Source: an uncultured Sanguibacteroides sp.
GTDB lineage: Bacteria > Bacteroidota > Bacteroidia > Bacteroidales > Marinifilaceae
Direction of reading: 5' to 3'
Assembly (NCBI RefSeq): GCF_900543425.1
Contig: NZ_UQRQ01000005.1
Location: 1,597-65,596, forward strand
DNA length: 64,000 bases
Shown: positions 39,976-53,966 of the stretch, in pieces
Position numbering within the stretch: the first letter of the stretch is position 1
Layout: the number at the start of each line of letters is the position of its first letter
Translations under genes and position numbers: made by a program
Notes under the pieces: generated by a model
What the model was told of the DNA's origin: nothing
The model's database searches: none
What the model saw: the letters and a program-made list of their open reading frames with translations, nothing else

Positions 39976-40273
39976 AACTAATTGTTTTTAATATAATGTA
40001 ACATAATGAATTAACGAGTGCATTCCTTGGCGCTCGCTAATAGTTACGGGTTATTCTACCGAAGGTTTCGGCTCCTCACAATATTTAACTACACTTGCAC
40101 TTTGCTTTACTACCTCATTCTTTTTTAATAAAAAATGGCTTAAAGAAACTTTGCCCTATTCTGGGGGAAACGCCCCTAAATTCCGGAAACAGATCACTTG
40201 TTTTTTCGGAACTTTCCCACCTGATTTTCAGTATAAACATAGAAATTGTCTAAACGAAATAAAAACCATTTTT

Positions 40274-41920
40274 ATGGAAGAAAGTTTTTTAAAGCTCATA
40301 GAACACAGTATAAAAGAGCATTGGAATTTGCCCTCTCTTTCCGACTATCAAGGGGCAAACCACACGTATAAAGATGTCGCCAGAAGAGTGGAAAAATTAC
40401 ATATCTTATTCGAAAAAAGCGATATTCGCCCGGGAGACAGAATTGCTTTGTGCAGTCGGAATACAGCTAATTGGGGAATTGCTTTCTTAGCTGCACTGAC
40501 TTACGGAGCTGTTGCCGTTCCCATTTTAAACGAATTCAAACCGGATACCATCCATCATATCATCAATCATTCCGGAACACGTCTGCTTTTTGTCGGAAAA
40601 TCGGTATGGGACGAGATAGATCACGAGGATATGCCTAACCTGGAGGGCATATTAGCCATGTCTGATTATTCGGTAATCTTTTCCAGGAGTAATAAACTGA
40701 AAGAAACCAATGCCCGCCTAAACGAACTTTTCGGGCAGAAATATCCGGAACGTTTTACAGCCAAAGACATCCAATACCGTGTAGATGCTCCGGAAGAGTT
40801 AGCCATGATCAATTACACCTCAGGAACAACCAGTTCTCCGAAAGGAGTCATGCTCCCGTATCGAAGCATGTGGTCGAACTTAAGATATGCCCTAGACCAA
40901 ATGGGATATCATCCGGGTGAAAAACTGGTATCCATTTTAACGATGGCCCATATGTACGGATTAGCTTTTGAGTTTATCTATCCATTCACCAGCGGTACCC
41001 ATATCTATTTTTTGCAGAAAATGCCATCACCTAAAATACTCAACGAAGTGTTTGCCGAAATACGTCCCCATCTTATCGTGGCCGTTCCTCTAATCATCGA
41101 AAAGATAATCAAAAAAAGAGTCTTATCACAATTAGATAAATTTCATATTAAACTTATGCTAAAAATTCCGGTTTTAAACGGAAAAATTCGTCATAAAATC
41201 AAACAAAAAATATTAGATGCTTTCGGGGGTCGATTTAAATTGCTCGCTATTGGAGGAGCAGCCTTAAACAAAGAAGTGGAAGCCTTCCTACATTCCGTTA
41301 AATTCCCTTATACGGTGGGATACGGTATGACCGAGTGCGGACCGGCCATTGCTTTCGATCATTGGGACACCTTCCGTCCCACCTCTTGCGGAAAGGTGGT
41401 GGATCGAATGGAATTAAAAATCGCCTCCTCCGACCCGGAGCAAGTCGTGGGAGAAATTCTTACCCGTGGAATGAACGTTATGGACGGCTATTACGAGAAT
41501 CCAGAAGCCACAAATACAGTATTGGATTCAGAAAAATGGTTACACACGGGCGATCTCGGCATTATCGATAAAGACGGTTACCTCTATATCAAAGGACGTA
41601 GTAAAAATATGATATTAGGACCGAGCGGCCAAAACATTTACCCGGAAGAGATTGAAGATTATCTGAATGTCATGCCTTATATCGCAGAATCTATAGTAAT
41701 CGAAAGAGAAGGAAAACTAATCGGACTGGTATATCCGGACTTCGAAGCCATGAAACAAAATAAAATATCGGCCGAGAATTTATCCAAAATTTTAGATGAA
41801 AGTCGGAAACAAGTGAATCAACAGCTCCCGGTATATAGTCAAATAGCCCGTATCATGATTCACAACGAAGAGTTTGAAAAAACACCCAAAAGAAGCATCA
41901 AACGTTATCTGTATCAATAA
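40274..41920 (+). CDS. AMP-dependent synthetase/ligase (long-chain fatty acid-CoA ligase-like), copy 1
   Basis: The track start at 40151 is an upstream extension. ATG at 40274 (MEESFLKLIEHSIKEHWN) aligns with the paralog's N-terminus. AMP motif YTSGTTSSPKGV, plus TGDLG...GRSKNMI. Confidence 0.8.
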   Translation: MEESFLKLIEHSIKEHWNLPSLSDYQGANHTYKDVARRVEKLHILFEKSDIRPGDRIALCSRNTANWGIAFLAALTYGAVAVPILNEFKPDTIHHIINHSGTRLLFVGKSVWDEIDHEDMPNLEGILAMSDYSVIFSRSNKLKETNARLNELFGQKYPERFTAKDIQYRVDAPEELAMINYTSGTTSSPKGVMLPYRSMWSNLRYALDQMGYHPGEKLVSILTMAHMYGLAFEFIYPFTSGTHIYFLQKMPSPKILNEVFAEIRPHLIVAVPLIIEKIIKKRVLSQLDKFHIKLMLKIPVLNGKIRHKIKQKILDAFGGRFKLLAIGGAALNKEVEAFLHSVKFPYTVGYGMTECGPAIAFDHWDTFRPTSCGKVVDRMELKIASSDPEQVVGEILTRGMNVMDGYYENPEATNTVLDSEKWLHTGDLGIIDKDGYLYIKGRSKNMILGPSGQNIYPEEIEDYLNVMPYIAESIVIEREGKLIGLVYPDFEAMKQNKISAENLSKILDESRKQVNQQLPVYSQIARIMIHNEEFEKTPKRSIKRYLYQ

Positions 41921-42064
41921 AAAAGCTGACTATAAAACTTCTATCTTTCAAAAAGATGGAAGATTACATATTTTTTATTATCTTGCCATAATGACAGGTT
42001 CCTTTTACTTCGGTATGGAATTTGTTTGTTATAAAAACGGGAAAAACAACTAAAATTAAAAACA

Positions 42065-42649
42065 ATGAAAACAAAAAAAAGCATCTTAATCATTGGAATA
42101 CTTATTTTTTCCTCTTTTGTAGTAACGGCAAGGGAGAAAAAGACTAAAGTAGATACAGCCGCTTTTAATCGTATCGTAGAACTCGTGAAAAGTAAAGTTT
42201 TTTACATCAATCTTGACGATGCATTTCCGAGCGGAAATAGTAGTATAACAATAGATTCAAAATACGGGAGAAAAACAATCGGCGGAGAAGGTCATGTTTC
42301 CCTGACAATGAATCAAGGAGAAATTTTTTTAATGGACACGATCGCTACCGGAAAACTTCCGTTCTTTGGCAGAGCTTATTCTGTTCCGTATGGTGAAGGC
42401 GGTGGCATTGAATTCGAGAAGGCAAAATTAACAAATGAATCATTGAAGGTCATTAAGAAACGGAAAAAACAATACGTGGAATATACCTTCCAAGTCAGGA
42501 ACCGCAATGATATTTTTTCTTTTTATGTAGAGATCTATTCCAACGGTTTTTGCAGCGTAAAAGTCAACAGTAATAACCGGGCTTCGATCTCTTATGACGG
42601 GAAAGTATCTCCTATCCCGGAAGATAAAAAGGCTATTTACATGAAATAA
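42065..42649 (+). CDS. exported hypothetical protein (signal peptide)
   Basis: 194 aa with leader MKTKKSILIIGILIFSSFVVTA. Hairpin AAAGGGC/GCCCTTT at 42651-42673. Confidence 0.55.
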   Translation: MKTKKSILIIGILIFSSFVVTAREKKTKVDTAAFNRIVELVKSKVFYINLDDAFPSGNSSITIDSKYGRKTIGGEGHVSLTMNQGEIFLMDTIATGKLPFFGRAYSVPYGEGGGIEFEKAKLTNESLKVIKKRKKQYVEYTFQVRNRNDIFSFYVEIYSNGFCSVKVNSNNRASISYDGKVSPIPEDKKAIYMK

Positions 42650-42752
42650 GAAAGGGCATAAAGGCCCTTTTCTCAATTCTTAAAAAAACTCATCCCTTGC
42701 GTTATCTGAAAATAATTTCTTAAATTTGAATTTTGTATCATCATATAATGCA

Positions 42753-44402
42753 ATGGAAGAAAGTTTTTTATTCTATATAGAACAAAGTATTAAAGAAAAT
42801 TGGGATCGTCCGGCCCTGACTGACTACAAAGGGGTAAATTGCAGTTACAAGGACGTAGCCCGAAAAATCGAAAAATTACATATCCTTTTTGAAAATGCCG
42901 GTATCAAACGAGGAGACAAGATCGCTTTATGCGGACGTAATTCCACCAATTGGGGAATCGCTTTTTTAGCCACCCTATCATACGGGGCCGTAGCTGTTCC
43001 CATTTTGAACGAATTCAAAACGGATAATATTCACAATATCGTCAATCATTCCGAAGCTAAATTATTGTTCGTGGGAAGTGTCGTATGGGAAGGATTAAAT
43101 GAAAATTCCATGGAACTTTTAGAGGGAATTATCAGTATGGAAGATTACTCGTTGCTTATTTCGCGTAGTCATTCTCTAACGGAAGCCCGCAATCGATTGA
43201 ACGAATTTTTCGGGAAAAAATATCCAGAGCGTTTTAAACCGGAGAACGTTAATTATCAATACGATAATTTAAAAGACCTGGCAGTCATTAACTATACCTC
43301 AGGAACAACCAGCTTCTCGAAAGGGGTAATGCTTCCGTATCGAAGCTTATGGTCAAATTTGAAATTTGCCTTTGGTGTATTTGGCAAACTACCGGAAGAA
43401 CGGGTCATTTCCATGTTACCCATGGCTCATATGTATGGTCTGGCTTTCGAATTCATTTACGAATTCGCCAGCGGCGCACATATTTTCTTTTTAACTCGTA
43501 CTCCTTCCCCGAAAATCATTGCGGAAGCTTTTGCCACGATCAAACCGAATTTAATCATATCAGTACCGCTTATCATTGAAAAGATCATTCGTAAAAAGGT
43601 ATTTCCCACGTTAGAAAAACCGATTATGAAGTTATTATTAAACCTTCCTCTCATCGATAAAAAAGTAAAACAATCTATTCGGCAAAAAGTCATTGATGCT
43701 TTTGGAGGTAATTTTAAAGAACTTATTATCGGAGGGGCAGCTCTTAATAAAGAGGTAGAGGAATTTTTACGTTCCATAGACTTCCCCTATACCGTTGGGT
43801 ATGGAATGACAGAATGCGGTCCCATTCTTTCCTACGACGGGTGGGAGACATTTAAAAAAGGCTCTTGCGGAAAAGCTGTTCCGCGAATGCAATTAAAAAT
43901 CGACTCTTCCGATCCTGCCCATATTGTAGGTGAAATATTAGCCAAAGGAGATAACCTGATGTACGGTTATTATAAAAACGAAACGGCAACCAAAGCGGCT
44001 TTTACCCCCGACGGATGGTTACACACGGGAGATTTGGGTCTGATAGATCCCGACGGTTATCTATATATCAAGGGACGCAGTAAAAATATGATCCTGGGAC
44101 CGAGCGGTCAAAACATATACCCGGAGGAGATTGAAGATCAAATTAATAATCTTCCATATGTTGCGGAATCCATCGTAATTGAAAAAGAAGGTAAACTAAT
44201 TGCCCTGATTTATCCGGATTTTGAAGCTGCCACCGCAGACCATAAGGAATCAGAAGAGTGTCTTACTACTATCATGGAAGAAAATCGCCAGGAAGTCAAT
44301 AAAACACTTCCCGCCTACAGCCAGATAACAAAAGTAAAAATCTATAATGAGGAGTTTGAGAAAACTCCTAAACGTAGTATCAAACGTTATTTATACCAAT
44401 AA
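42753..44402 (+). CDS. AMP-dependent synthetase/ligase (long-chain fatty acid-CoA ligase-like), copy 2
   Basis: ATG at 42753 (MEESFLFYIEQSIKENWD), downstream of the -7 box TAAATTTG (42721-42728). Collinear with copy 1, including the identical C-terminus EEFEKTPKRSIKRYLYQ. Confidence 0.8.
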   Translation: MEESFLFYIEQSIKENWDRPALTDYKGVNCSYKDVARKIEKLHILFENAGIKRGDKIALCGRNSTNWGIAFLATLSYGAVAVPILNEFKTDNIHNIVNHSEAKLLFVGSVVWEGLNENSMELLEGIISMEDYSLLISRSHSLTEARNRLNEFFGKKYPERFKPENVNYQYDNLKDLAVINYTSGTTSFSKGVMLPYRSLWSNLKFAFGVFGKLPEERVISMLPMAHMYGLAFEFIYEFASGAHIFFLTRTPSPKIIAEAFATIKPNLIISVPLIIEKIIRKKVFPTLEKPIMKLLLNLPLIDKKVKQSIRQKVIDAFGGNFKELIIGGAALNKEVEEFLRSIDFPYTVGYGMTECGPILSYDGWETFKKGSCGKAVPRMQLKIDSSDPAHIVGEILAKGDNLMYGYYKNETATKAAFTPDGWLHTGDLGLIDPDGYLYIKGRSKNMILGPSGQNIYPEEIEDQINNLPYVAESIVIEKEGKLIALIYPDFEAATADHKESEECLTTIMEENRQEVNKTLPAYSQITKVKIYNEEFEKTPKRSIKRYLYQ

Positions 44403-46387: not shown

Positions 46388-46804
46388 TTATTCCAAATCA
46401 GGCTGTATCGTCACGTTAAATGTTACGTCGGTAGTTCCGATTGTATTCCTGAGTACGATCTTATATCTTCCTGAATCCTTTGTTTTCGCCTCTTTTAGAG
46501 TAACGGTCACCTTATTTTTTTGTATATCGATACCTTCCGAAGGCTGATACAACTTACCATCCTTATACACCTCACAAGTTGCCTCCGGTTGCGAGGTGTA
46601 TTCAATATAAAAGGAAACGATCTGCCCTTCGAAACCTTTAACATTAAGACTTTTAGGAATTTTCTGGGTTATCACCGGTTGAACACCCGTACCACGAAGT
46701 ACCCCCTCCGTAACATCACGATTCTCTGATTCCTTAACATCGTTATTTTTAAACCCGGTAAAACTTACAAATAACATTAAAACAACTAATAATTTCTTCC
46801 GCAT
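46388..46804 (-). CDS. small secreted single-Ig-domain protein (I-set-like), paralog A
   Basis: 138 aa. Signal peptide MRKKLLVVLMLFVSFTGF, then PVITQKIP..VKGFEGQIVSFYIEY...EVYKDG...VTVTLKEAKTKDSGRYKIVLRNTIGTTDVTFNVTI. -7 box TATTTTTG (minus strand) at 46838-46845. Confidence 0.7.
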   Translation of the reverse strand: MRKKLLVVLMLFVSFTGFKNNDVKESENRDVTEGVLRGTGVQPVITQKIPKSLNVKGFEGQIVSFYIEYTSQPEATCEVYKDGKLYQPSEGIDIQKNKVTVTLKEAKTKDSGRYKIVLRNTIGTTDVTFNVTIQPDLE

Positions 46805-46999
46805 AATCTCTCAATTTAAACTAATTAATACATTTTACAAAAATAGACAAAATAAATTTTAGAAAAAAAATTACCGATCTTTTTAATCAAAATAATCTTA
46901 CACGTAACGCACGATTCCTGATTCTTAAAAAAACCAGAATATAATTCTTGATAAAATAATTCAGATTTACAATTAGATAAAAATTCAAATTAGATAAAC

Positions 47000-48001
47000 C
47001 ATAGTACCAGAGAACTATAAAAATATTCTTTAATTATGGGGAATCAGGTATCTTCCGTGGGATATTCATAATATTTTTAGAAACATCTTTTTATCGAAAT
47101 AAGAAAACTATAAAATTTTTCGGTTTCATAACTCTAAAACCCGAATCCTCATTATCGACTATAATTTCCTCTTCATCCTTGTTAGAAATGAAAAATAGAT
47201 GAATCTACACTAAAAACGTCGATTATCTTATCACTTGAAGGTAGCTTGCCTCTTTTGTTTCCAACAGTATCACAACTGGAAGATCCTGAGCCAAAGGTAT
47301 TCCCATCGTGAAAATAATCTCCCAAGAAATAATTGTAAGCTGCACGTTCTAATCTCTCGTCACCCACGGAGGGGAATCATTCACATTTGCTTATCAAACT
47401 CTACAAGATCCGGAACGGCACTTCTGTTAAAAAGCCAATCCCCCGGCAAAAACAAAGAATCCACAGGTAACGTATAAGGCTTCTTCTGAAAATAAACAAA
47501 TTACGGAGAATTAGCGGATAAGCAATCACGGATAACACAAAGAAACCTATTCACATCAGCAAAATAAATCTCCGTTGTAACAGGTAATTCTCCAGATTAA
47601 CATGTCCCGTTAAATTCACAAACATATTTGACATAAACCTTGACACCGAATCGAGTAAACCATTTAACCAATCATTCTCAAAAAAATAAAGAATCCAAAA
47701 ACAACGAATAGAGTCAGTAAACTGATCACCCCGTGACAAGCGAAATAGGCTAAAAAATAAGAGATTCCCCCAAAAATAAACTAGGATAAAAAGGGCAAGA
47801 AACCCAATAAAAGAGATAAGTATACAAACCGAAAGAAAGGGAATAAAAACTGACATTCATCAGGATGGAAACATCGAACACGATAAAATTTACTAGCGTG
47901 AAAAACAGTAATCTTCCCAAGAAGTTTGCGGTCACAATCTCCCCGTTATTCAAGGAGCAGCCCCATAACATTTCCATCGCTTTAAACCAGCCTCCCCTCA
48001 A
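47000..48001 (-). pseudogene. decayed, internally deleted paralog of the 1105-aa membrane protein gene
   Basis: ~47027-47435 aligns by eye to 49903-~50328, and ~47436-48001 aligns to ~51975-52545 of the intact gene, at an eyeball-estimated ~75% nt identity. Track fragments 47182..47367, 47551..47856 and 47750..48001 translate to recognisable pieces (NFLGRLLFFTLVNFIVF, DWLNGLLD, TGHVNLENYLLQR, VFSVDSSIF) in different frames. Confidence 0.8.
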
Positions 48002-48281
48002 GGCTGTCCTATTAAATTAATTATAAAAAGCACGTCAACAATATTGGAATAAAAAATCATATAAACTTTAGACTTGAGCATGACTTATAAAATTCAATCC
48101 AACAAAAAGTTAAACAAATTATTTTTTAATACTAATATCAGTTGACAAAAACTATTAATTAACAACATTAAGAATAGATTAAATATATTCCTACAAGAAA
48201 AATTAATTTGATTCATTATATAAAGAATTGGCTCGAGATATACTTTTAATCCCAAAACCAATTCTTGTCAAATACAACATG

Positions 48282-48701
48282 TTAATTATCCGGATCAGCA
48301 TAGATCTTTACATTAAATATCACGTTAGTCTCTCCTGCCGAATTTTTAAGCACAATCTTATATTCCCCTGAATCTTGCCGAGCAGCACATAATAGTTTAA
48401 CTGTTAGAACTTCACTAGTAAAAGAAACATCTTCCGAAGATTGCCATAGTTCGCCATCTTTATATATTTTATAAGTAGCCTCTGGATTTGCAGTAAAATT
48501 AATTTCAAATTTAACAATTTGTCCTACAAAACCTTTTACATTACCATCACGAGGAGTCGTATAGTTAACAACAGGTTTACTCGGTGGTGCAAAAAGTAAT
48601 ATTTTACTAATATTGACATCACTAATTTTTTCTACTTCTTGACTTCTAAACCCTGTAAAACTTAAAAATAAGATCAAAACAAATAATATATTTATTTTCA
48701 T
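48282..48701 (-). CDS. small secreted single-Ig-domain protein (I-set-like), paralog B
   Basis: 139 aa. MKINILFVLILFLSFTGF leader, then PVVNYTTP..VKGFVGQIVKFEINF...KIYKDG...LTVKLLCAARQDSGEYKIVLKNSAGETNVIFNVKI. Confidence 0.7.
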   Translation of the reverse strand: MKINILFVLILFLSFTGFRSQEVEKISDVNISKILLFAPPSKPVVNYTTPRDGNVKGFVGQIVKFEINFTANPEATYKIYKDGELWQSSEDVSFTSEVLTVKLLCAARQDSGEYKIVLKNSAGETNVIFNVKIYADPDN

Positions 48702-48884
48702 TGTCTCAAATTTAGATGATTAATTATTTTATTTTTTAATAATATAAGATCATAATAATTATAATATAACAAATCATGATCTCCTTTACCCGTAATTTCA
48801 TATTTCTTGGCACAACAACAAGAATATTTATATAAAATTTAATGTTACTGGCAAATTTCATCGAAATAAATATACAATAAGATG

Positions 48885-49295
48885 TTATTCATTAGGATAT
48901 ATCTTCACATTAAATTTGGCTTCAGCTGTTCCAGCTTTATTCCAAAGCACAATTTTATATTCCCCAGAGTGAGCTAATTTTACATTCTTTATAGTACATT
49001 CCATCGTGTCTTGATTTTTACTAATATTTCCAGAACCAAATTGTTCACCATCCTTTAATATTACAAATTCAGTAGACGCATCTGCAACAAATTCAATAGC
49101 AAATGTCATAATCTGACCTTCAAAACATTTAACCTCACCATTACGAGGAATCGTTCTAGTTATCACAGGCGCTTGCGACAAAACAGCATATAACTCCTTA
49201 GAAATATTAAGACTGTTAGAAGTTACCACCTCTTTATTTTTAAACCCCGTAAGACTTACAAATAACATTAAAACAAATAATAATTTTTTCTTCAT
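48885..49295 (-). CDS. small secreted single-Ig-domain protein (I-set-like), paralog C
   Basis: 136 aa. MKKKLLFVLMLFVSLTGF leader, then PVITRTIP..VKCFEGQIMTFAIEF...VILKDG...MECTIKNVKLAHSGEYKIVLWNKAGTAEAKFNVKI. Confidence 0.7.
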   Translation of the reverse strand: MKKKLLFVLMLFVSLTGFKNKEVVTSNSLNISKELYAVLSQAPVITRTIPRNGEVKCFEGQIMTFAIEFVADASTEFVILKDGEQFGSGNISKNQDTMECTIKNVKLAHSGEYKIVLWNKAGTAEAKFNVKIYPNE

Positions 49296-49488
49296 AGTCG
49301 TAAATTTTAATTAGTTAATATAATTTGCCAATTTAAATAATATACATTGTCGACATTAATAATATATTTATAACTAAAAGATATATCACAATAAACATCA
49401 ACATAACGATCATCTCAGATCATCATTTTTCATTCTCAAAAGCAGTTAAAATCAGTTATTATTACACCAGTATGCAATAAATTAAACA

Positions 49489-52400
49489 TCACTCTTTTAC
49501 TTTTACCCATTTCACGGCATCAGCCACAAGTCCCTGAGAATACTCTTCATTCATTTTTTTATCACTTAGTGTTACCCTTGCGTTTTCAGTAAAATCAAAT
49601 ACTCCAAGAGAGACCCAACATCCCAAGTCGTCCTCTCCCGGAGCAACAACCACTTCATGCTCTTTTCTGCCATCAAAAACGGTATAAAAACGTGAAGTTT
49701 CTTGCTTTTTCTTTTCTGATAAAGAAGAGAATTCAATCCAATCAGGAATACTTTTCCGACCGCCACCGGCGAAGGTCGTATAGTAAAAAAAAACCTCATA
49801 CTTCCCTGCTTCAGGCAACCGAACACTCCATTCCACTTTTTGTTTACCTTCGCTAACTTCTTTATAAAGCGCACTTCGCACCGGGAAACCATAGAAATGT
49901 TCTTTAATCGTGGGTAACCAAGTATCTTCCGTGAGATATTCATAATATTTTTTAGAAACATCTTTTTGCCGGAATAAAGAAGTTATAAAATTTTTCGGTT
50001 TTACGATTCTAAAACCCGAATCCTCATTATCAACTATAATTTCGTCGCTGCTCGAAGCGAAAATAGACGAATCCACACTAAAAACACCGGTTATCGTGTC
50101 CTTACTCAAACAACTTGCCTCTTCCGGCTCTAATCGAATCATTGAAGGAAGATTCTGAGCCAATGGCGTTCCTATGCTAAAAACTGCCTTTAAACTGGAA
50201 ATCCGAGATACACGTGTTCTGATTTCCTTTGCCTCGTGAGGGGGAATAATCCATGCCTGATGAAATTCTGTCTCGACAAGACCGGGCACATCACTCCTAT
50301 TGAATACCTTAAAACAGTACAGCCAATAGGGTTCGTCTATTCCCGTAATCTTTATTGCCCGAGGTTCTCTGATATCAAGTATAGGCAATCGGTTGGTATG
50401 ATACCAATCCTCCACGAGTGAGTCCAAACGAACCCCGAAGGCCAGATGAAATTGGTCAAAAAACACTTTTGCGGTCGTCTCTCTGAAAAAATTGTTTGCT
50501 AGAAAACCATGATAAAACTGACGAAATGGTTCGTTTCCCACTAACAAAGAGATATATGAATACAACTCCTCGCTTTTTTTACGAATGATATTTTCCAGCA
50601 CTTCCGGTAACAATGAATGGTCATATAAAGCATCTTTCAGGCTATTATGACTCAGATATTCCACGGCAACATAATCATCAACGGGAGAAGACCATGCTTT
50701 AAGACCTCCATACCTGCGGGCCACGTTAGCCAGAACATCATGTAAAATCGGGTATTCCCGGGAAGCAATAAATGTCGTTTTACCCCGCATCATGGGACGT
50801 ATATCACAACTACCCTCTCCAAATAACGTTTTAATATCACGCAACTTCATTCTTATATCCATAAAATTCTCTTTTTCCTCCTCGGCTTTACCATCCGGAC
50901 TTTCAAAAGGATAACCTTTTATAGAATAGGCTTTCTCGGGAAGAAAAACAAGTCCTCCCTGCACTCTCTCTCCACCTCTTTGCATCACTCCTGGAAAACA
51001 ATAAAAAGCAACAGGCACTTCCAAGAGCGTCACCCAACGATACGGGTATTGCTGTATCGGATCATGAATTTCTCGCTCCTTATTATAAAAACTTGCGATA
51101 TAACATTTTTCCAGAAATTTCGGCGTTTGTATACATTCTTCACTCTCCATACCACGTTTAATATGCGAGAGTCTTGACACGATAGTGTCTTTCAGTAAAA
51201 TATCGTAATCCTTAAGAAGGTACTCGTGATCAGGCAAATAATAGAGTTCCAAACGAACAGGACCTAACGAGGCCATCCGTTTCTTGTAATGTCCAATACA
51301 AAGACTAATACCCGGCATACCATGATCAAAAGCAAACACGGTTTCTCCTTCTCTCTCGCTAACAACATCTCCCTGAGAAATAGCCGTCAGCATGGGATCA
51401 TGTTCCACGCTTAAACTATAGCGGGAAAAATTTACATCCCGAACTCCCGACTCCCCGTATGGAGGCACACAAACCGGATACCAGACACATTCAGGCGTGA
51501 GTAACTTGTAATCTTTACCGCAAAAGGCAGGTGAATAACCGAAACCATATATACCGATACGATTTACTCTCGAAAAATTGTAGTCTCGTGTGATCACGTC
51601 CAGAAAACACAGGTCATTGTCAACACCTCCCTCGTAACTCATAACAACCTCGCAGTTCTCTCCCGGCTTTAACTCTTTACCCGTGATCAATGCCTGGTGA
51701 TCCTTACGGAAAGAAACGGGTTGACCGTCAATATCGAGACGATTCACGGTCAAACCCGGGTTAAGGTAAATCACGAGAGGGATTACAACAGATGCTCGAT
51801 TTGTAACGGTCAACTCGCTGACCACGGAGATATCACCATTCCCGAGCTCCTTCACCTGCAAATCATTCCGTACCACACGGGCTGCAGGATGTTTACCATG
51901 TTCGGCGTAAACCTGCCTGTAAATCTCCCGGTTCATATTAACGGAAGTGTGACGAACGTAATAAGCAAAAGCCAGTCCACAAGCGAAAACAAAAAATCCA
52001 CAAGCAACACCCACGGTTTTTCTGAAAATAAGCAAATCATTGGGAATTCGCGGGTAAGGAATCACGGACAACACCAGAAAACCTATTCCCGTCAACAAGA
52101 TAAATCCCCGTTGCAACAAGTAATTCCCCAGGTTAACGTGACCCGTGAAATCCGAGAACATGCTCGGTATAAATCGTGCAACCGGGTCAAGCAAACCATT
52201 TAACCAATCGCTCCCGAAAAAAATAAAAACTCCAAGAACAGCAAATAGGATCAGTAAGCTGATTCCCTGGTGACGAACGAAGAGGGCCACGAGATAAGAA
52301 ATTCCCAAAAAATAAACCAGGGTAGGCAAGGTTAAGGTAACCCAATAAAAAAGATAGGCCCATAAATCGAAAGAGCGGGAATAAAAATTGGCGTTGATCA

Positions 52401-52806
52401 AGATGGAAACGCCGAACACGATAAAATTCACAAGTGTGAAAAACAATAATTTCCCCAAGAAGTTTCCGATGACAATTCCGCAGTTACTCAAGGGACGGAC
52501 ATGTAACGCCTCCATTGCTCTTAGCCTGGCCACCCTCGAATCACCAGTAATGTAACCGATGACGAAAAGCAACTGAACAAAATTAAAGTAATAGGCCGCC
52601 TTGTAAGCCATGGATGATGGAAAGACTTGTGAGATCCAATCCAACGAGGAACGAAACAAATCATTTACCGAGCCGGCCGATGCCGGGGTGAACAGGTAAA
52701 CAAGAAGCCCAACAATGGAAAGGATGGTAAATATACCAAAAACAACAGTCCTGCAGGAAGATTTAAGCTCGTATAAAGTGATCACAAAAACAGCACGCTT
52801 ATCCAT
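49489..52806 (-). CDS. giant membrane protein: ABC-2-permease-like 7-TM N-terminus + M1-aminopeptidase-like extracytoplasmic body lacking HEXXH + golvesin-like C-terminal beta domain
   Basis: 1105 aa. About 7 hydrophobic helices in aa 20-290, then a long soluble region. I found no HEXXH or GxMEN in the translation. The C-terminus W..RLPEAGKYEVFFYY...GCWVSLGVFDF...VTLSD...GLVADAVKWVKV fits the golvesin C-terminal-like pattern. No ABC ATPase gene is nearby. Confidence 0.6.
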   Translation of the reverse strand: MDKRAVFVITLYELKSSCRTVVFGIFTILSIVGLLVYLFTPASAGSVNDLFRSSLDWISQVFPSSMAYKAAYYFNFVQLLFVIGYITGDSRVARLRAMEALHVRPLSNCGIVIGNFLGKLLFFTLVNFIVFGVSILINANFYSRSFDLWAYLFYWVTLTLPTLVYFLGISYLVALFVRHQGISLLILFAVLGVFIFFGSDWLNGLLDPVARFIPSMFSDFTGHVNLGNYLLQRGFILLTGIGFLVLSVIPYPRIPNDLLIFRKTVGVACGFFVFACGLAFAYYVRHTSVNMNREIYRQVYAEHGKHPAARVVRNDLQVKELGNGDISVVSELTVTNRASVVIPLVIYLNPGLTVNRLDIDGQPVSFRKDHQALITGKELKPGENCEVVMSYEGGVDNDLCFLDVITRDYNFSRVNRIGIYGFGYSPAFCGKDYKLLTPECVWYPVCVPPYGESGVRDVNFSRYSLSVEHDPMLTAISQGDVVSEREGETVFAFDHGMPGISLCIGHYKKRMASLGPVRLELYYLPDHEYLLKDYDILLKDTIVSRLSHIKRGMESEECIQTPKFLEKCYIASFYNKEREIHDPIQQYPYRWVTLLEVPVAFYCFPGVMQRGGERVQGGLVFLPEKAYSIKGYPFESPDGKAEEEKENFMDIRMKLRDIKTLFGEGSCDIRPMMRGKTTFIASREYPILHDVLANVARRYGGLKAWSSPVDDYVAVEYLSHNSLKDALYDHSLLPEVLENIIRKKSEELYSYISLLVGNEPFRQFYHGFLANNFFRETTAKVFFDQFHLAFGVRLDSLVEDWYHTNRLPILDIREPRAIKITGIDEPYWLYCFKVFNRSDVPGLVETEFHQAWIIPPHEAKEIRTRVSRISSLKAVFSIGTPLAQNLPSMIRLEPEEASCLSKDTITGVFSVDSSIFASSSDEIIVDNEDSGFRIVKPKNFITSLFRQKDVSKKYYEYLTEDTWLPTIKEHFYGFPVRSALYKEVSEGKQKVEWSVRLPEAGKYEVFFYYTTFAGGGRKSIPDWIEFSSLSEKKKQETSRFYTVFDGRKEHEVVVAPGEDDLGCWVSLGVFDFTENARVTLSDKKMNEEYSQGLVADAVKWVKVKE

Positions 52807-53067
52807 AACATTCTGACGTTTATAAATTAACCAATTTCTCCATACACAGAGAAATAAGGAATCATTCCATGAAAAAAGACAATCCCAACTGCACTTAATG
52901 AATCAATATAATTTCTCAAAATTAGAAAAAATAATAATATACACAAATAATATTAATGAATATATCATTAATATATACAACAAAACAAAATCACCTTTAA
53001 AGTATCATCATATAACTACCAATAAAGTAATTCATTACCCGAATTCACAATAAATGTTCTCATATCG

Positions 53068-53553
53068 CTACTCTACCTTCACCCACTTCACGGCATCGGC
53101 CACCAACCCTTGCGTTGATTCTATCCTGTCACTCAAGGTTACTTTGGCGTTTTTAGAAATTTCTACCTTAAACGTAGCTTTAACAGATCCGAATTCATTC
53201 GTGAGTACAATATCATATATCCCAGTGTCACTTAATTCTGCATTTTCTATTTTAACTGTAGCTTTTCCTTCCGTATATACAAGATTACCTGAATTATCAC
53301 CTAATACGCCATCTTTATACACTTCCACGAAAACGGCAGGTTCTGCCATAAATTCAATATAAAATGTAATAATTTGCCCCACATAACCTCTAACATCCCC
53401 ATCCGGAACTATTTTTGTTATCACAGGTTTATTTCCTTTGAAAGAAAATAATTCTCGCCTGACATCAGGACCATTCGATACCTCTAACTCTTTATTCTTA
53501 AATCCCGTAAGAGCAACAAACAACACTAAAACAAATAAAAATATCCTCTTCAT
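53068..53553 (-). CDS. small secreted Ig-domain protein, paralog D, chimeric with the C-terminal ~24 aa of the giant-protein family
   Basis: The track start at 53586 is TTG. I prefer the ATG at 53553 (MKRIFLFVLVLFVALTGF), 31 nt downstream of the minus-strand -7 box TACATTTG (53584-53591). Ig body PVITKIVP..VRGYVGQIITFYIEF...EVYKDG...ATVKIENAELSDTGIYDIVLTNEFGSVKATFKVEI, then the tail AKVTLSDRIESTQGLVADAVKWVKVE. Confidence 0.7.
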   Translation of the reverse strand: MKRIFLFVLVLFVALTGFKNKELEVSNGPDVRRELFSFKGNKPVITKIVPDGDVRGYVGQIITFYIEFMAEPAVFVEVYKDGVLGDNSGNLVYTEGKATVKIENAELSDTGIYDIVLTNEFGSVKATFKVEISKNAKVTLSDRIESTQGLVADAVKWVKVE

Positions 53554-53966
53554 AACATTAATTAATGTAGTTAATATATTTTTCAAATGTAAAATATATC
53601 GCTAAATCATCCAAACAATGTACAATAAAGTTTTATCACAACACAACAAACACCATTATTAAAATAAAAATTCCATTATTTCAATAAAAAATAATTTTTC
53701 GGCCAATTTACATCTCACGTTTACGAAGAAATTTTACAAAAAATGCTCCACGCTAAAAAAGAGGACGTTTTTGCATCCTGTAAAAAACTATATTCCTTTA
53801 GAAAATACTTAAAGCACCTACGATTATATATATCGTTCAAAATCTTCACTATCCTCCGATGTTTTTTTAATCCGGTCAATGTATGCACATAATGTAGCAT
53901 CATAGTTATAAACCCTATCGTCTACAACTAAGCTATATCAGATTCTCATTTATCTCTCCGGAAAGA

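What the first reader, a model, noticed from the sequence alone, without database searches (positions are those of the whole stretch)
46388..53591. Expanded locus of four small secreted, titin-like (I-set pattern) single-Ig-domain proteins interleaved with a giant membrane protein
Four minus-strand paralogs (A 46388-46804, B 48282-48701, C 48885-49295, D 53068-53553) each encode a near-identical Sec-type leader (MKKKLLFVLMLFVS[LF]TGF[KR]) followed by one ~95-aa domain. There is no lipobox Cys and no obvious T9SS C-terminal domain.

The shared framework is PV[IV].....P....V[KR][GC][FY].GQI..F.I[EN][FY]......[VI].KDG..............[VC].[IL]......[DH][ST]G.Y.IVL.N..G.....F.V.I.

The x-KDG C-strand, the D-S-G-x-Y F-strand and the N-x-x-G G-strand are hallmarks of the metazoan I-set Ig domain (titin, twitchin, telokin type). 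The absence of the Cys pair also matches intracellular muscle Ig modules. Typical bacterial Big_1/2/3 domains do not show this signature.

Framework positions are conserved across the paralogs while the predicted loop segments differ. Each gene has its own AT-rich 180-260-bp upstream spacer, and TAnnTTTG boxes are seen for A and D. The two middle genes look visibly more AT-rich than the flanking DNA.

The genes are physically organised as [giant membrane gene]-[Ig gene(s)] modules that have been duplicated. My inference is a diversifying family of secreted binding or decoy modules functionally tied to the giant membrane protein, possibly eukaryote-like (host-mimicking or horizontally acquired). 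I cannot name any characterised system with this architecture.
Basis: partly seen in the sequence, partly recalled or inferred. Interest (0 to 1): 0.85.

Follow-up and report, generated by a model that had tools for sequence, protein, structure and literature searches.

The report
Bacterial titin-like Ig gene array
A gut bacterium (Sanguibacteroides/Gabonibacter group) carries four genes for small exported proteins that fold like the immunoglobulin modules of animal muscle titin; such genes always sit beside a huge membrane protein resembling a transporter that has lost its motor, a conserved pairing whose function is still unknown.

Summary
Four minus-strand ORFs (A-D) encode a 14-15-residue hydrophobic leader, a variable linker and one about 95-aa domain. 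All four pass Pfam's I-set threshold. The AlphaFold model's best 50 PDB matches are titin, myomesin, MLCK and other metazoan Ig domains.

The family is small and was found only in Odoribacteraceae. NCBI already labels members "immunoglobulin domain-containing protein". Its most canonical members are 40-45% identical to nematode and mite titin-like domains.

The "giant" has seven predicted TM helices. It combines an ABC-2-permease-like membrane domain, an M1-aminopeptidase fold lacking HEXXH/GxMEN in all 94 relatives examined, and a Golvesin_C/CBM-like domain.

Ig-then-giant is a conserved two-gene unit in at least four different neighbourhoods. More distant giant paralogues have an ABC ATPase upstream instead. 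Their TM2-TM3 cytoplasmic loop is their most conserved part, whereas in the Ig-linked clade it is the least conserved.

The window's locus is a birth-and-death array of such units: one intact giant, one pseudogene, and a 3.4-kb deletion fusing D to a giant's tail.

Ortholog dN/dS is 0.20-0.56, so selection is purifying, not diversifying.

Best reading: periplasmic Ig adaptor subunits of an ATPase-less membrane scaffold. This is inferred, not shown. A eukaryotic origin is plausible but unproven.

The parts
46388..46804 (-). Ig gene A (138 aa): leader, about 20-aa linker, one I-set domain. It is the orthologue of the Ig gene downstream of the giant in S. justesenii and G. massiliensis (73% aa).
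   Evidence: ORF. Pfam I-set 38.9 bits. AF2 domain pLDDT >90. Foldseek best matches are titin and myomesin. Orthology. dN/dS 0.20.
46838..46845 (-). TAnnTTTG box (TATTTTTG) 34-41 nt upstream of the ATG of A. It is a candidate Bacteroidota -7 promoter element.
   Evidence: The motif is only marginally enriched window-wide, so the evidence is weak.
47017..47998 (-). Pseudogene of a second giant paralogue. Pieces matching giant residues 91-291 and 834-972 lie in different frames, with an internal deletion of about 540 codons.
   Evidence: tblastn of the giant against the window. blastn synteny. Only broken 83- and 101-aa ORFs are found here.
48282..48701 (-). Ig gene B (139 aa), GC3 16%. Orthologue of G. 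massiliensis Ig2 (88% aa).
   Evidence: Pfam I-set 33.7 bits. (composition). (orthology). dN/dS 0.33.
48885..49295 (-). Ig gene C (136 aa), GC3 23%. Orthologue of G. massiliensis Ig1 (96% aa).
   Evidence: Pfam I-set 31.3 bits. (composition). (orthology). dN/dS 0.25.
49489..52806 (-). Intact giant gene (1105 aa). It comprises an ABC-2-permease-like membrane domain with 7 predicted TM helices (aa 21-285), an M1-aminopeptidase fold without a zinc site (about 305-805), a beta-sandwich, and a Golvesin_C/CBM6-35-36-like domain (about 960-1105).
   Evidence: Pfam Golvesin_C 39.3 bits, with weak Peptidase_M1 and ABC2_membrane_2 hits. AF2 pLDDT 79. Foldseek matches IRAP, ERAP1 and F3 at E about 1e-15. 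The PDB profile search finds PepN and the xanthan lyase CBM. No HEXXH or GxMEN. Hydropathy.
53068..53553 (-). Ig gene D (161 aa). It is an I-set protein whose last about 27 residues derive from the C-terminus of a deleted giant.
   Evidence: Pfam I-set 36.7 bits. The unfused 134-aa orthologue is P0005/L007 at 96% identity.
53071..53163 (-). Remnant of the last about 30 codons (Golvesin_C end) of a deleted giant, fused in frame to D. The deletion junction is at about 53159; relative to L007, 3.38 kb is missing (L007 10396-13779).
   Evidence: tblastn, 62% identity to giant aa 1071-1104. blastn against L007 shows two collinear blocks abutting at window 53159.
53584..53591 (-). TAnnTTTG box (TACATTTG) 31-38 nt upstream of the ATG of D.
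   Evidence: weak evidence.
52917..52924 (-). TAnnTTTG box (TAATTTTG) 111 nt upstream of the giant's ATG.
   Evidence: weak evidence.
53762..53779 (-). Terminator-like hairpin plus T-run between the Na+/Ca2+ exchanger gene and D. It marks the upstream boundary of the array.
   Evidence: Terminator-like sites are not enriched over shuffles.

Best explanation
**What the genes are.** A-D are functional genes for Sec-exported, single-domain I-set immunoglobulin proteins. The family was found only in Odoribacteraceae.

**The partner.** Their conserved genetic partner is a roughly 1100-aa inner-membrane protein. It has an ABC-2-permease-like membrane domain. Its large C-terminal part is inferred to be periplasmic, and combines a catalytically dead M1-aminopeptidase fold with a carbohydrate-binding-module-like Golvesin_C domain.

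**What distinguishes this clade.** In more widespread paralogues, an ABC ATPase gene sits directly upstream of the giant, and the TM2-TM3 cytoplasmic loop is almost invariant. In the clade found here, the Ig gene occupies the upstream position instead. No ATPase gene lies directly upstream, that loop has drifted, and the periplasmic loops are the better conserved parts.

**Most likely mechanism (inferred).**
- The Ig protein is released into the periplasm.
- There it acts as a binding or adaptor subunit of the membrane protein, recognising a ligand or regulating the pseudo-peptidase/CBM ectodomain.
- The membrane protein itself no longer works as an ATP-driven transporter.

**The array.** The window's locus is a tandem birth-and-death array of [Ig then giant] units. 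Three giants have decayed or been deleted. That leaves four divergent Ig variants beside one intact giant, possibly serving it as alternative adaptors.

**Shown:** domain identities, export leader, conserved adjacency, lack of catalytic motifs, pattern of loop conservation, purifying selection, array history.

**Inferred:** periplasmic location, physical interaction, loss of ATPase coupling, adaptor role.
For: **Ig identity**
- All four window proteins pass the Pfam I-set threshold. Relatives score up to 59 bits over the full model.
- The family profile hits titin I65-I70 at 6e-82, and the best 60 PDB sequence hits shown are all metazoan Ig-superfamily proteins.
- The AF2 domain has pLDDT >90. 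Its best Foldseek matches are titin M4, M10 and Z1Z2, myomesin and MLCK, with TM 0.8-0.89.

**Export**
- The n-region is MKKK, followed by 14-15 uncharged residues.
- There is no Cys, and no T9SS or lipoprotein Pfam hit.

**Linkage**
- An Ig gene lies 77-201 bp upstream of the giant in 11 of the 12 scorable clade-I giants.
- Gene tables place the pair in at least four unrelated neighbourhoods:
  - Na/Ca-exchanger to deacetylase;
  - MscL to P-type ATPase;
  - FloA to ornithine decarboxylase;
  - DUF3332 to RecG.
- Further Ig-giant pairs occur on other Butyricimonas and Odoribacter contigs.
- All four extra Ig proteins looked up had a giant immediately downstream.

**Giant**
- M1 fold.
- No HEXXH or catalytic GxMEN in 94 of 94 relatives; one distant paralogue has a GFMEN string at residue 754, in the part that aligns C-terminal to the M1 catalytic motifs.
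- Golvesin_C corresponds to a CBM6-35-36-like domain, which in the Bacteroides proteins Cbeg4 and Cbeg5 acts as a lectin (PMC9166713).

**ATPase versus Ig**
- 30 distant paralogues have an ABC_tran ATPase 0-87 bp upstream; the representative checked is followed by OEP, HlyD and AcrB genes.
- The TM2-TM3 loop is 77% identical within that clade, against 43% overall. In the Ig-linked clade it is 42% against 54% overall and carries a 2-residue deletion.
- Periplasmic loops 40-66 and 200-232 are relatively more conserved in the Ig-linked clade.
- Some other paralogues without an upstream ATPase gene have a different small signal-peptide protein there, for example an fn3 protein and a weak CarboxypepD_reg-like hit.

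**Selection**
- dN/dS is 0.20-0.56 for Ig orthologues and 0.12-0.21 for giants.

**Array history:**
Against: - No direct evidence of interaction, location or expression. No co-folding run was available.
- Ig genes A, B and C have stayed under purifying selection although their cis giants decayed. For A, dS is 0.83 against S. justesenii, where the downstream giant is also only a remnant. A strict 1:1 obligate complex is therefore unlikely; they must act in trans or independently.
- The intact giant's orthologues in L007 and G. massiliensis have no Ig gene directly upstream.
- Topology is not settled. TM2 falls below a simple hydropathy threshold, and the 25 residues after TM7 carry four K/R. 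A periplasmic ectodomain is therefore inferred, not shown.
- No canonical A-x-A signal-peptidase site follows the leader. The leader is more conserved than the domain, so it might be retained as an anchor.
- An ATPase encoded elsewhere cannot be excluded.
- The two clades differ in make-up (orthologues against paralogues). The loop-conservation contrast is therefore normalised within each clade but is not a formal test.
Confidence: 0.5

Rival explanations
1. Host-directed eukaryote mimic. The Ig proteins leave the cell, for example in outer-membrane vesicles, and bind host Ig-superfamily partners or matrix as decoys or adhesins. Linkage to the giant would reflect only a shared export or release route.
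For: - The domain is genuinely titin/I-set-like.
- The most canonical members are 40-45% identical to metazoan titin-like domains.
- The named members come from Butyricimonas, Gabonibacter and Sanguibacteroides, genera I know as animal-gut anaerobes.
- There is a precedent for a eukaryote-like protein in gut Bacteroidales: B. fragilis ubiquitin (PMC5705921, listed).
Against: - There is no lipobox, T9SS CTD or other signal for crossing the outer membrane.
- Tight, repeated adjacency to an inner-membrane protein in several neighbourhoods is not expected for a free effector.
- Selection is purifying rather than arms-race-like, and loops are no more variable than strands.
Confidence: 0.12
2. Assembly or stability factor. 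The Ig protein, possibly kept in the membrane by an uncleaved and unusually conserved leader, is needed to fold, insert or stabilise the giant. It would have no ligand-binding role. Eukaryotic single-pass Ig proteins that escort transporters are the analogy.
For: - The leader is 65% identical among paralogues whose domains are about 42% identical, and the LTGF motif is kept across genera.
- No canonical A-x-A cleavage site is visible by reading the sequence.
- The upstream gene position is conserved.
- A neuroplastin-PMCA complex is among the structural matches, as an analogy only (rank 23).
Against: - The hydrophobic stretch is only 14-15 residues, which is typical of a cleaved signal peptide and short for a membrane anchor.
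- Ig genes persist for long periods without a cis giant.
- Four divergent copies beside one giant are hard to explain by a pure chaperone role.
Confidence: 0.15
3. No functional coupling. The Ig genes are independent periplasmic proteins that were merely co-duplicated with the giant. B and C, with extreme AT bias, are drifting towards pseudogenes.
For: - GC3 is 16-23% for B and C, against 41% for the giant.
- Giants decay while Ig genes remain.
- The intact giant's orthologues lack an upstream Ig gene.
Against: - The Ig-then-giant order is kept in at least four unrelated neighbourhoods across Sanguibacteroides, Gabonibacter, Butyricimonas and an Odoribacter isolate.
- Within the loci examined, the Ig family was never found away from a giant or a giant remnant.
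- B and C have intact ORFs, with dN/dS of 0.25-0.33 against orthologues.
Confidence: 0.1

Closest known systems
Metazoan I-set immunoglobulin domains (titin, twitchin/telokin, myomesin, MLCK; Pfam PF07679)
   Same: - Same sequence family by HMM: 31-59 bits against a threshold of 23.7.
- The profile hits titin I65-I70 at 6e-82.
- Same predicted fold, with rmsd 1.1-2.8 A and TM up to 0.89.
- The DxGxY and NxxG motifs are present, and the Cys pair is absent as in many titin modules.
- The B. synergistica member is 40-45% identical to nematode and mite titin-like domains.
   Different: - A single domain behind a bacterial Sec leader, not a cytoplasmic multi-domain filament.
- The four window copies have replaced the C-strand Trp (Y or L before KDG), whereas Butyricimonas members keep it.
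- Encoded in an operon-like pair with a bacterial inner-membrane protein.
I-set domains already known in prokaryotic contexts: Caudovirales decoration and tail proteins (Hoc type) and stalks of bacterial fibrillar adhesins
   Same: - I-set is one of the three Ig-like families reported on tailed phages (Fraser et al., as cited in PMC4332376).
- It is listed as a stalk domain of bacterial fibrillar adhesin-like proteins (PMC8286594).
- Phage tail, Hoc and 'I-set domain' proteins match the model at E about 1e-5.
   Different: - Those are domains appended to virion proteins or repeated in long surface fibres.
- Here it is a stand-alone 135-145-aa exported protein.
- There is no sequence match in phage genomes, and the phage structural matches are weaker than titin (1e-8).
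ATPase-linked paralogues of the giant (ABC ATPase, giant, then OEP-HlyD-AcrB genes) in Odoribacteraceae, Marinifilaceae, Calditrichia and other MAGs
   Same: - Same overall architecture and length.
- Same dead M1 fold and Golvesin_C domain.
- 25-30% identity over the full length.
   Different: - They have a 303-326-aa ABC_tran ATPase gene 0-87 bp upstream and a nearly invariant TM2-TM3 loop (KRDKKLDTAEVIYVRPMSN).
- The window's clade has an Ig gene upstream instead, and a variable, shortened loop.
- Neither version has been characterised experimentally as far as I could find.
M1 zinc aminopeptidases (PepN, ERAP1, IRAP, tricorn factor F3)
   Same: The N-terminal beta domain plus thermolysin-like domain fold is recovered by Foldseek at E about 1e-15 and by profile search against PepN at 2e-4.
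   Different: - No HEXXH(18)E zinc site and no catalytic GxMEN exopeptidase motif in any of the 94 family members.
- In the alignment, the HEFFH of the Legionella enzyme faces non-His residues.
- Fused to a membrane domain and a CBM-like domain.
- A pseudo-enzyme, not a member in the catalytic sense.
Eukaryote-like proteins of gut Bacteroidales, e.g. Bacteroides fragilis ubiquitin (BfUbb)
   Same: A small protein of eukaryotic type in a gut Bacteroidales lineage with narrow taxonomic distribution (PMC5705921 and PMC3463472, listed).
   Different: - BfUbb is, from my recollection, much closer to its eukaryotic counterpart; I did not read that figure here.
- BfUbb has a shown function in intraspecies antagonism.
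- Here identity is at most 45%, divergence within the family is deep (20-40%), and no function is shown.
Ig-domain ancillary subunits of eukaryotic membrane transporters (neuroplastin/basigin with PMCA or MCTs). Analogy only.
   Same: A small Ig-domain protein paired with a large polytopic membrane protein. A PMCA-neuroplastin chain appears among the structural matches (rank 23).
   Different: - Those subunits are single-pass membrane proteins in eukaryotes.
- No homology of the partners is implied.
- No interaction has been shown here.

Membership tests
Pfam I-set immunoglobulin domain (PF07679) | Score at or above the curated gathering threshold (23.7 bits) over most of the 90-position model | tested here: met
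   A 38.9, B 33.7, C 31.3 and D 36.7 bits, covering model positions 4-9 to 90. Relatives score 23.7-59.3 bits.
Pfam I-set immunoglobulin domain (PF07679) | Ig beta-sandwich whose nearest solved structures are I-set domains | tested here: met
   AF2 domain pLDDT >90. The best 50 Foldseek PDB matches are metazoan Ig domains, mostly titin, myomesin, MLCK, palladin and myotilin, with TMt up to 0.89.
Pfam I-set immunoglobulin domain (PF07679) | A/A' strand switch and C' strand without C'' (the topological definition of the I-set) | not testable with these tools
   Only a DSSP string is returned (8 strand segments). Sheet pairing could not be inspected.
Pfam I-set immunoglobulin domain (PF07679) | Core motifs: C-strand Trp, F-strand D-x-G-x-Y, G-strand N-x-x-G | tested here: inconclusive
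   D(S/T)GxY and NxxG are present in all four copies. The C-strand Trp is replaced by Y or L in the window copies but present in Butyricimonas members, for example EWFYNG.
Bacterial Ig-like families (Big_1/2/3 and others) | Pfam match to a Big_* model | tested here: not met
   No Big_* hit at E<=1 for any of the four proteins.
Bacteroidota lipoprotein or T9SS cargo | Lipobox Cys after the leader, or a C-terminal T9SS sorting domain | tested here: not met
   There is no Cys in or after the leader. No CTD-type Pfam hit. The mature proteins end a few residues after the Ig domain.
Sec/SPase I signal peptide | Positively charged n-region, 7-15-residue h-region, and small residues at -3/-1 | tested here: inconclusive
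   The n- and h-regions fit: MKKK followed by 14-15 uncharged residues. The only candidate site, (S/A/I/V)-x-T before GF, is non-canonical. No signal-peptide predictor was available.
M1 zinc aminopeptidase (giant gene) | HEXXH-(18)-E zinc site and GxMEN motif | tested here: not met
   No HEXXH in the window giant or in any of 94 relatives. The only G.MEN string is GFMEN at residue 754 of one distant paralogue, in the part that aligns C-terminal to the M1 catalytic motifs. The fold is retained.
ABC-2-type transporter permease (giant gene) | Pfam ABC2_membrane match above threshold | tested here: not met
   ABC2_membrane_2 scores only 12.7 bits against a threshold of 27.2. Homology rests on the ATPase-linked paralogues.
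ABC-2-type transporter permease (giant gene) | Cognate ABC ATPase gene adjacent, and a conserved coupling loop | tested here: not met
   No ATPase gene lies next to the window giant or directly upstream of any Ig-linked giant. The TM2-TM3 loop is the least conserved region in this clade.
Golvesin_C / CBM6-35-36-like domain (giant gene) | Pfam PF25275 at or above the gathering score | tested here: met
   39.3 bits against 31.6. The family profile also reaches the Paenibacillus xanthan lyase C-terminal module.
Known anti-phage defence systems (PADLOC) | Match to any PADLOC model | tested here: not met
   No hit for Ig A, Ig B or the giant.

The most novel reading that the evidence does not exclude
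An ancestor of Odoribacteraceae captured a muscle-type I-set module from an animal, directly or through a phage. It was co-opted as a periplasmic subunit. That subunit took the place of the ABC ATPase as the dedicated genetic partner of an ABC-2 / pseudo-M1 / CBM membrane protein. The result would be a new, ATP-independent envelope machine. Its specificity would be set by interchangeable Ig adaptors, and the four-gene array in this window would be such an adaptor panel.
Probability: 0.2. Interest if true: 0.75.

Novelty: new variant of a known kind. Interest (0 to 1): 0.5.

Why it matters
If the reading holds, this is a clean natural example of two things.

1. **A canonical animal-type immunoglobulin module working inside a bacterial envelope.** It is a stand-alone subunit rather than a stalk repeat of an adhesin or a phage decoration.

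2. **An ABC-2-type membrane protein that has swapped partners.** It has exchanged its cytoplasmic motor for a periplasmic binding protein, while keeping a dead peptidase and a lectin-like domain as scaffold.

Both proteins belong to families with no experimental characterisation. These families are multi-copy in the Odoribacteraceae genomes scanned, with several giant loci each in G. massiliensis and B. muris. A function would therefore annotate many genes.

The narrow taxonomic range and the 40-45% identity to metazoan titin-like domains also make the family a usable test case for animal-to-bacterium domain transfer.

If instead the pairing is only a co-duplication, the finding reduces to an already annotated Ig-domain family and is ordinary.

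Tried and rejected
- **NCBIfam and PADLOC.** NCBIfam gave no meaningful hit for the Ig proteins or the giant. PADLOC gave none, so the locus is not a known defence system.
- **Phage origin.** tblastn of the Ig domain against 50,697 phage records found nothing. BFVD structural matches to phage tail and Hoc I-set domains exist but are weaker than titin.
- **Catalytic M1 peptidase.** Rejected: no HEXXH or catalytic GxMEN in 94 relatives.
- **Diversifying selection.** Rejected gene-wide: dN/dS is 0.20-0.56 and loops are not more variable than strands. There were too few sequences for per-site tests.
- **Recent gene conversion as the cause of leader similarity.** Synonymous differences in the leader are somewhat lower than in the domain for some pairs (pS 0.22-0.45 against 0.5-0.68). 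That rests on about 13 synonymous sites, so it is inconclusive.
- **Promoter and terminator scans.** Sigma-70-type promoter and terminator scans showed no enrichment. TAnnTTTG was only marginally enriched.
- **Census of distant single-domain relatives.** The exhaustive representative search was swamped by many-domain metazoan proteins. It could not list distant single-domain bacterial relatives. Unnamed metagenomic multi-I-set proteins, one with NHL repeats, may be bacterial, but their origin could not be checked.
- **Literature.** Searches for the giant family, for golvesin in bacteria, for I-set in Bacteroidota and for Odoribacteraceae Ig proteins found no characterisation.

Full report

Yes. 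The ORF list shows four minus-strand ORFs at the stated coordinates: A 46388-46804, B 48282-48701, C 48885-49295 and D 53068-53553. They flank a 1105-aa ORF at 49489-52806.

The four proteins are 41-44% identical, with 32 invariant columns. Each has three parts:
- an MKKK-type n-region followed by 14-15 uncharged residues;
- a poorly conserved linker of about 20 residues;
- one domain of about 95 aa.

There is no Cys near the leader. No lipoprotein, T9SS or Big_* Pfam hit was found.

Some details of the finding need correcting.
- The leaders are 65% identical on average, not near-identical. The linker is 20% identical and the domain about 42%.
- Strands and loops are equally conserved, at 43% and 40%.
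- B and C are strongly AT-biased (GC3 0.16 and 0.23, against 0.41 for the giant). A and D are less so.
- TAnnTTTG boxes lie upstream of A, B, D and the giant, but the motif is barely enriched in the window.

**2. What are the small proteins?**

All four exceed the curated Pfam I-set threshold, scoring 31-39 bits against 23.7. Relatives from Butyricimonas reach 59 bits over the full model.

A profile of the wider family hits titin I65-I70 at 6e-82. The best 60 PDB sequence hits shown are all metazoan Ig-superfamily proteins.

The AlphaFold2 model of A has pLDDT >90 over residues 41-134, while the leader and linker are low. Its best 50 Foldseek PDB matches include titin M4, M10, Z1Z2 and I21, myomesin, MLCK, palladin and myotilin. 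Target-normalised TM-scores reach 0.89, with rmsd of 1.1-2.8 A.

**3. Distribution of the Ig family**

Two word-indexed searches of 5.8 billion clusters found only 9 and then 28 clusters. All named ones come from Sanguibacteroides, Gabonibacter and Butyricimonas. Several are already called 'immunoglobulin domain-containing protein' and carry precomputed PF07679. Protein A is 100% identical to a protein of 'uncultured Sanguibacteroides sp.'.

An exhaustive HMM search with the domain profile gave 8243 hits. The list is dominated by many-domain proteins. The named ones are hemicentins and nematode Ig proteins. The best single-domain score to the window-type profile is only 30-38 bits.

The more canonical B. 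synergistica domain is 40-45% identical (72-77 bits) to single domains of titin-like proteins of Trichuris, Mesorhabditis, Strongyloides and a mite. That is higher than its 18-26% identity to the window's copies.

An unnamed metagenomic protein with 22 I-set repeats plus NHL repeats may be bacterial. It is less similar, at 41 bits.

I-set domains are already recorded on tailed phages (Fraser et al., as cited in PMC4332376) and as stalks of bacterial fibrillar adhesins (PMC8286594).

**4. What is the giant?**

- **Pfam:** Golvesin_C above threshold, plus weak Peptidase_M1 and ABC2_membrane_2 hits.
- **AF2 model** (pLDDT 79): seven long helices up to residue 303, then beta and alpha/beta domains.
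- **Foldseek:** aligns about 650 residues to M1 aminopeptidases (IRAP, ERAP1, F3) at E about 1e-15.
- **Family profile against PDB:** reaches PepN (2e-4) and the Paenibacillus xanthan lyase C-terminal module.
- **Catalytic motifs:** none of 94 family members has HEXXH. The only G.MEN string is a GFMEN at residue 754 of one distant paralogue, in the part that aligns C-terminal to the M1 catalytic motifs. The fold is a pseudo-peptidase.
- **Golvesin / xanthan-lyase module:** this is a CBM6-35-36-like domain that acts as a lectin in the Bacteroides proteins Cbeg4 and Cbeg5 (PMC9166713).
- **Topology:** hydropathy, the K/R-rich N-terminus and the TM2-TM3 loop suggest N-in with a C-terminal ectodomain in the periplasm. 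This is an inference. TM2 is only weakly hydrophobic, and the start of the ectodomain is K/R-rich.

**5. Linkage**

- In S. justesenii the syntenic locus, between a Na/Ca exchanger gene and a Polysacc_deac_3 gene, reads Ig142-giant1108-Ig135.
- G. massiliensis has an expanded version.
- A close relative of the window's organism (L007) has D-giant1101-giant.
- A second, unlinked locus in the same group has Ig142-giant1087, between MscL and a P-type ATPase.
- Butyricimonas has Ig138-giant1109 between FloA and ornithine decarboxylase, and Ig136/152-giant1100 between DUF3332 and RecG.

A scan of one genome per species with a giant profile returned 78 loci. These are mostly Odoribacteraceae, often many per genome, plus a few MAGs labelled Marinifilaceae, Calditrichia, Cytophagia and Gemmatimonadales.

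An HMM of the Ig family finds an Ig ORF 77-201 bp upstream of the giant in 11 of the 12 scorable giants that are at least 43% identical to the window's. It finds none next to the 25-30%-identical paralogues.

**6. What the distant paralogues have instead**

- 30 have a 303-326-aa ABC_tran ATPase gene 0-87 bp upstream. The representative checked is followed by OEP, HlyD and AcrB genes.
- Others have an ECF sigma factor upstream, tandem giants, or other small signal-peptide proteins such as an fn3 protein and a weak CarboxypepD_reg-like hit.

Conservation differs between the two clades.

| Region | ATPase-linked clade | Ig-linked clade |
|---|---|---|
| Overall identity | 43% | 54% |
| TM2-TM3 cytoplasmic loop (aa 89-107) | 77%; most conserved region (KRDKKLDTAEVIYVRPMSN, recognisable even in Calditrichia) | 42%; least conserved region; carries a 2-residue deletion |
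| Periplasmic loop 40-66 | 25% | 53% |
| Periplasmic loop 200-232 | 49% | 76% |

I read this as loss of ATPase coupling and gain of periplasmic constraints in the Ig-linked clade. It is an inference from conservation only.

**7. History of the window's array**

- Against L007, the window aligns at 99.2% up to position 53159, then resumes 3.38 kb further on in L007. This is a clean deletion. It removed the first giant and fused D in frame to that giant's last 30 or so codons. The unfused 134-aa D exists in L007.
- Positions 47017-47998 hold a frameshifted, internally deleted giant pseudogene.
- S. justesenii and G. massiliensis keep a remnant of a giant N-terminus after their last Ig gene. G. 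massiliensis also keeps a 71-aa C-terminal remnant after Ig2.
- Orthology is A = Ig4/Sj_dn (73%), B = Ig2 (88%), C = Ig1 (96%) and D = L007_D (96%). Ig3 plus giant1108 have no counterpart in the window.
- Paralogues are saturated at synonymous sites, so the duplications are old.

The locus is thus a birth-and-death array of [Ig then giant] units.

**8. Selection**

Nei-Gojobori dN/dS between orthologues is 0.20 (A), 0.33 (B), 0.25 (C) and 0.56 (D, few changes). For giants it is 0.12-0.21.

The Ig genes are therefore maintained by purifying selection, including those whose cis giant has decayed. This argues against pseudogenes and against gene-wide diversifying selection. It also argues against a strict one-to-one obligate pairing.

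**9. Mechanism**

The best-supported reading (confidence about 0.5) is that the Ig proteins are exported to the periplasm. There they act as binding or adaptor subunits of an ATPase-less ABC-2 / pseudo-M1 / CBM membrane scaffold. The four divergent copies could then serve the remaining giant or giants.

The rivals are:
- a host-directed mimic released from the cell;
- an assembly or anchor factor that uses the unusually conserved leader;
- mere co-duplication without functional coupling.

None of these can be excluded without localisation, interaction and expression data.

**10. Novelty**

The Ig identity is already in public annotation. I-set domains are known in phages and in bacterial adhesins.

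I found no description of the following:
- the conserved Ig-giant unit;
- the Ig-or-ATPase alternative upstream of the giant, with its matching shift in loop conservation;
- the dead-peptidase nature of the giant family;
- the array's history.

I rate this a new variant of a known kind, of moderate interest. Interest would be higher if an animal origin or a physical Ig-giant complex were demonstrated.

Noticed in passing
window 48282-49295 (genes B and C): Third-position GC is 16% for B and 23% for C, against about 40% for neighbouring genes and 31-38% for paralogues D and A. Both ORFs are intact and under purifying selection. The cause is unexplained; candidates are codon usage, expression level or a different history.
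   Followed up: partly
window 40151-44402: Two paralogous AMP-binding (acyl-CoA-ligase-like) genes of 589 and 558 aa flank a DUF4251 gene. The same trio lies next to the array in S. justesenii and G. massiliensis.
   Followed up: no
L029 5050-15012 and about 30 other loci (e.g. L022, L068, L076): There is a conserved five-gene block: ABC ATPase, giant (pseudo-M1/Golvesin_C), OEP, HlyD-type adaptor and AcrB-type RND pump. It is present from Odoribacteraceae to Calditrichia MAGs. An ABC-2-like protein with a dead peptidase ectodomain sitting next to a complete RND efflux set is itself uncharacterised.
   Followed up: partly
L055 5433-5948; L061 5500-5973; L053 5466-5852; L058 5474-5971; L069 5111-5542: Other giant paralogues without an upstream ATPase gene are preceded by different small signal-peptide proteins. 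One is an fn3 protein above the Pfam threshold. Weak, below-threshold hits suggest CarboxypepD_reg-like, PEGA-like and DUF4307-like proteins; one has no hit. This hints that 'small exported protein plus giant' is a general theme.
   Followed up: partly
L031, L044, L047, L043 (Gabonibacter, Butyricimonas, Odoribacter): Two or three full-length giant paralogues sit in direct tandem, with no small gene between them.
   Followed up: no
L018 5441-5851 (Butyricimonas synergistica Ig protein): This single-domain bacterial protein is 40-45% identical over 80-94 residues to individual Ig domains of nematode (Trichuris, Mesorhabditis, Strongyloides) and mite titin-like proteins. That is closer than it is to the window's own family members (18-26%).
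   Followed up: partly
L001 against L004/L005: The G. massiliensis and S. justesenii records are 99-100% identical in Ig3, Ig4 and the second giant. They differ, however, in what lies upstream: the G. massiliensis locus has extra units, and further upstream an ABC ATPase, a GldF/GldG-like permease and a thioredoxin gene, whereas S. justesenii has the Na/Ca exchanger gene directly upstream. The array has therefore been rearranged or expanded between very close relatives.
   Followed up: no
P0102 (2500 aa, 10.7-kb JGI metagenome contig): This is an unnamed protein with 22 I-set repeats followed by NHL/teneurin-type beta-propeller repeats, encoded as one intron-less gene on a short metagenomic contig. 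It may be a bacterial multi-I-set protein. Its origin could not be checked.
   Followed up: no
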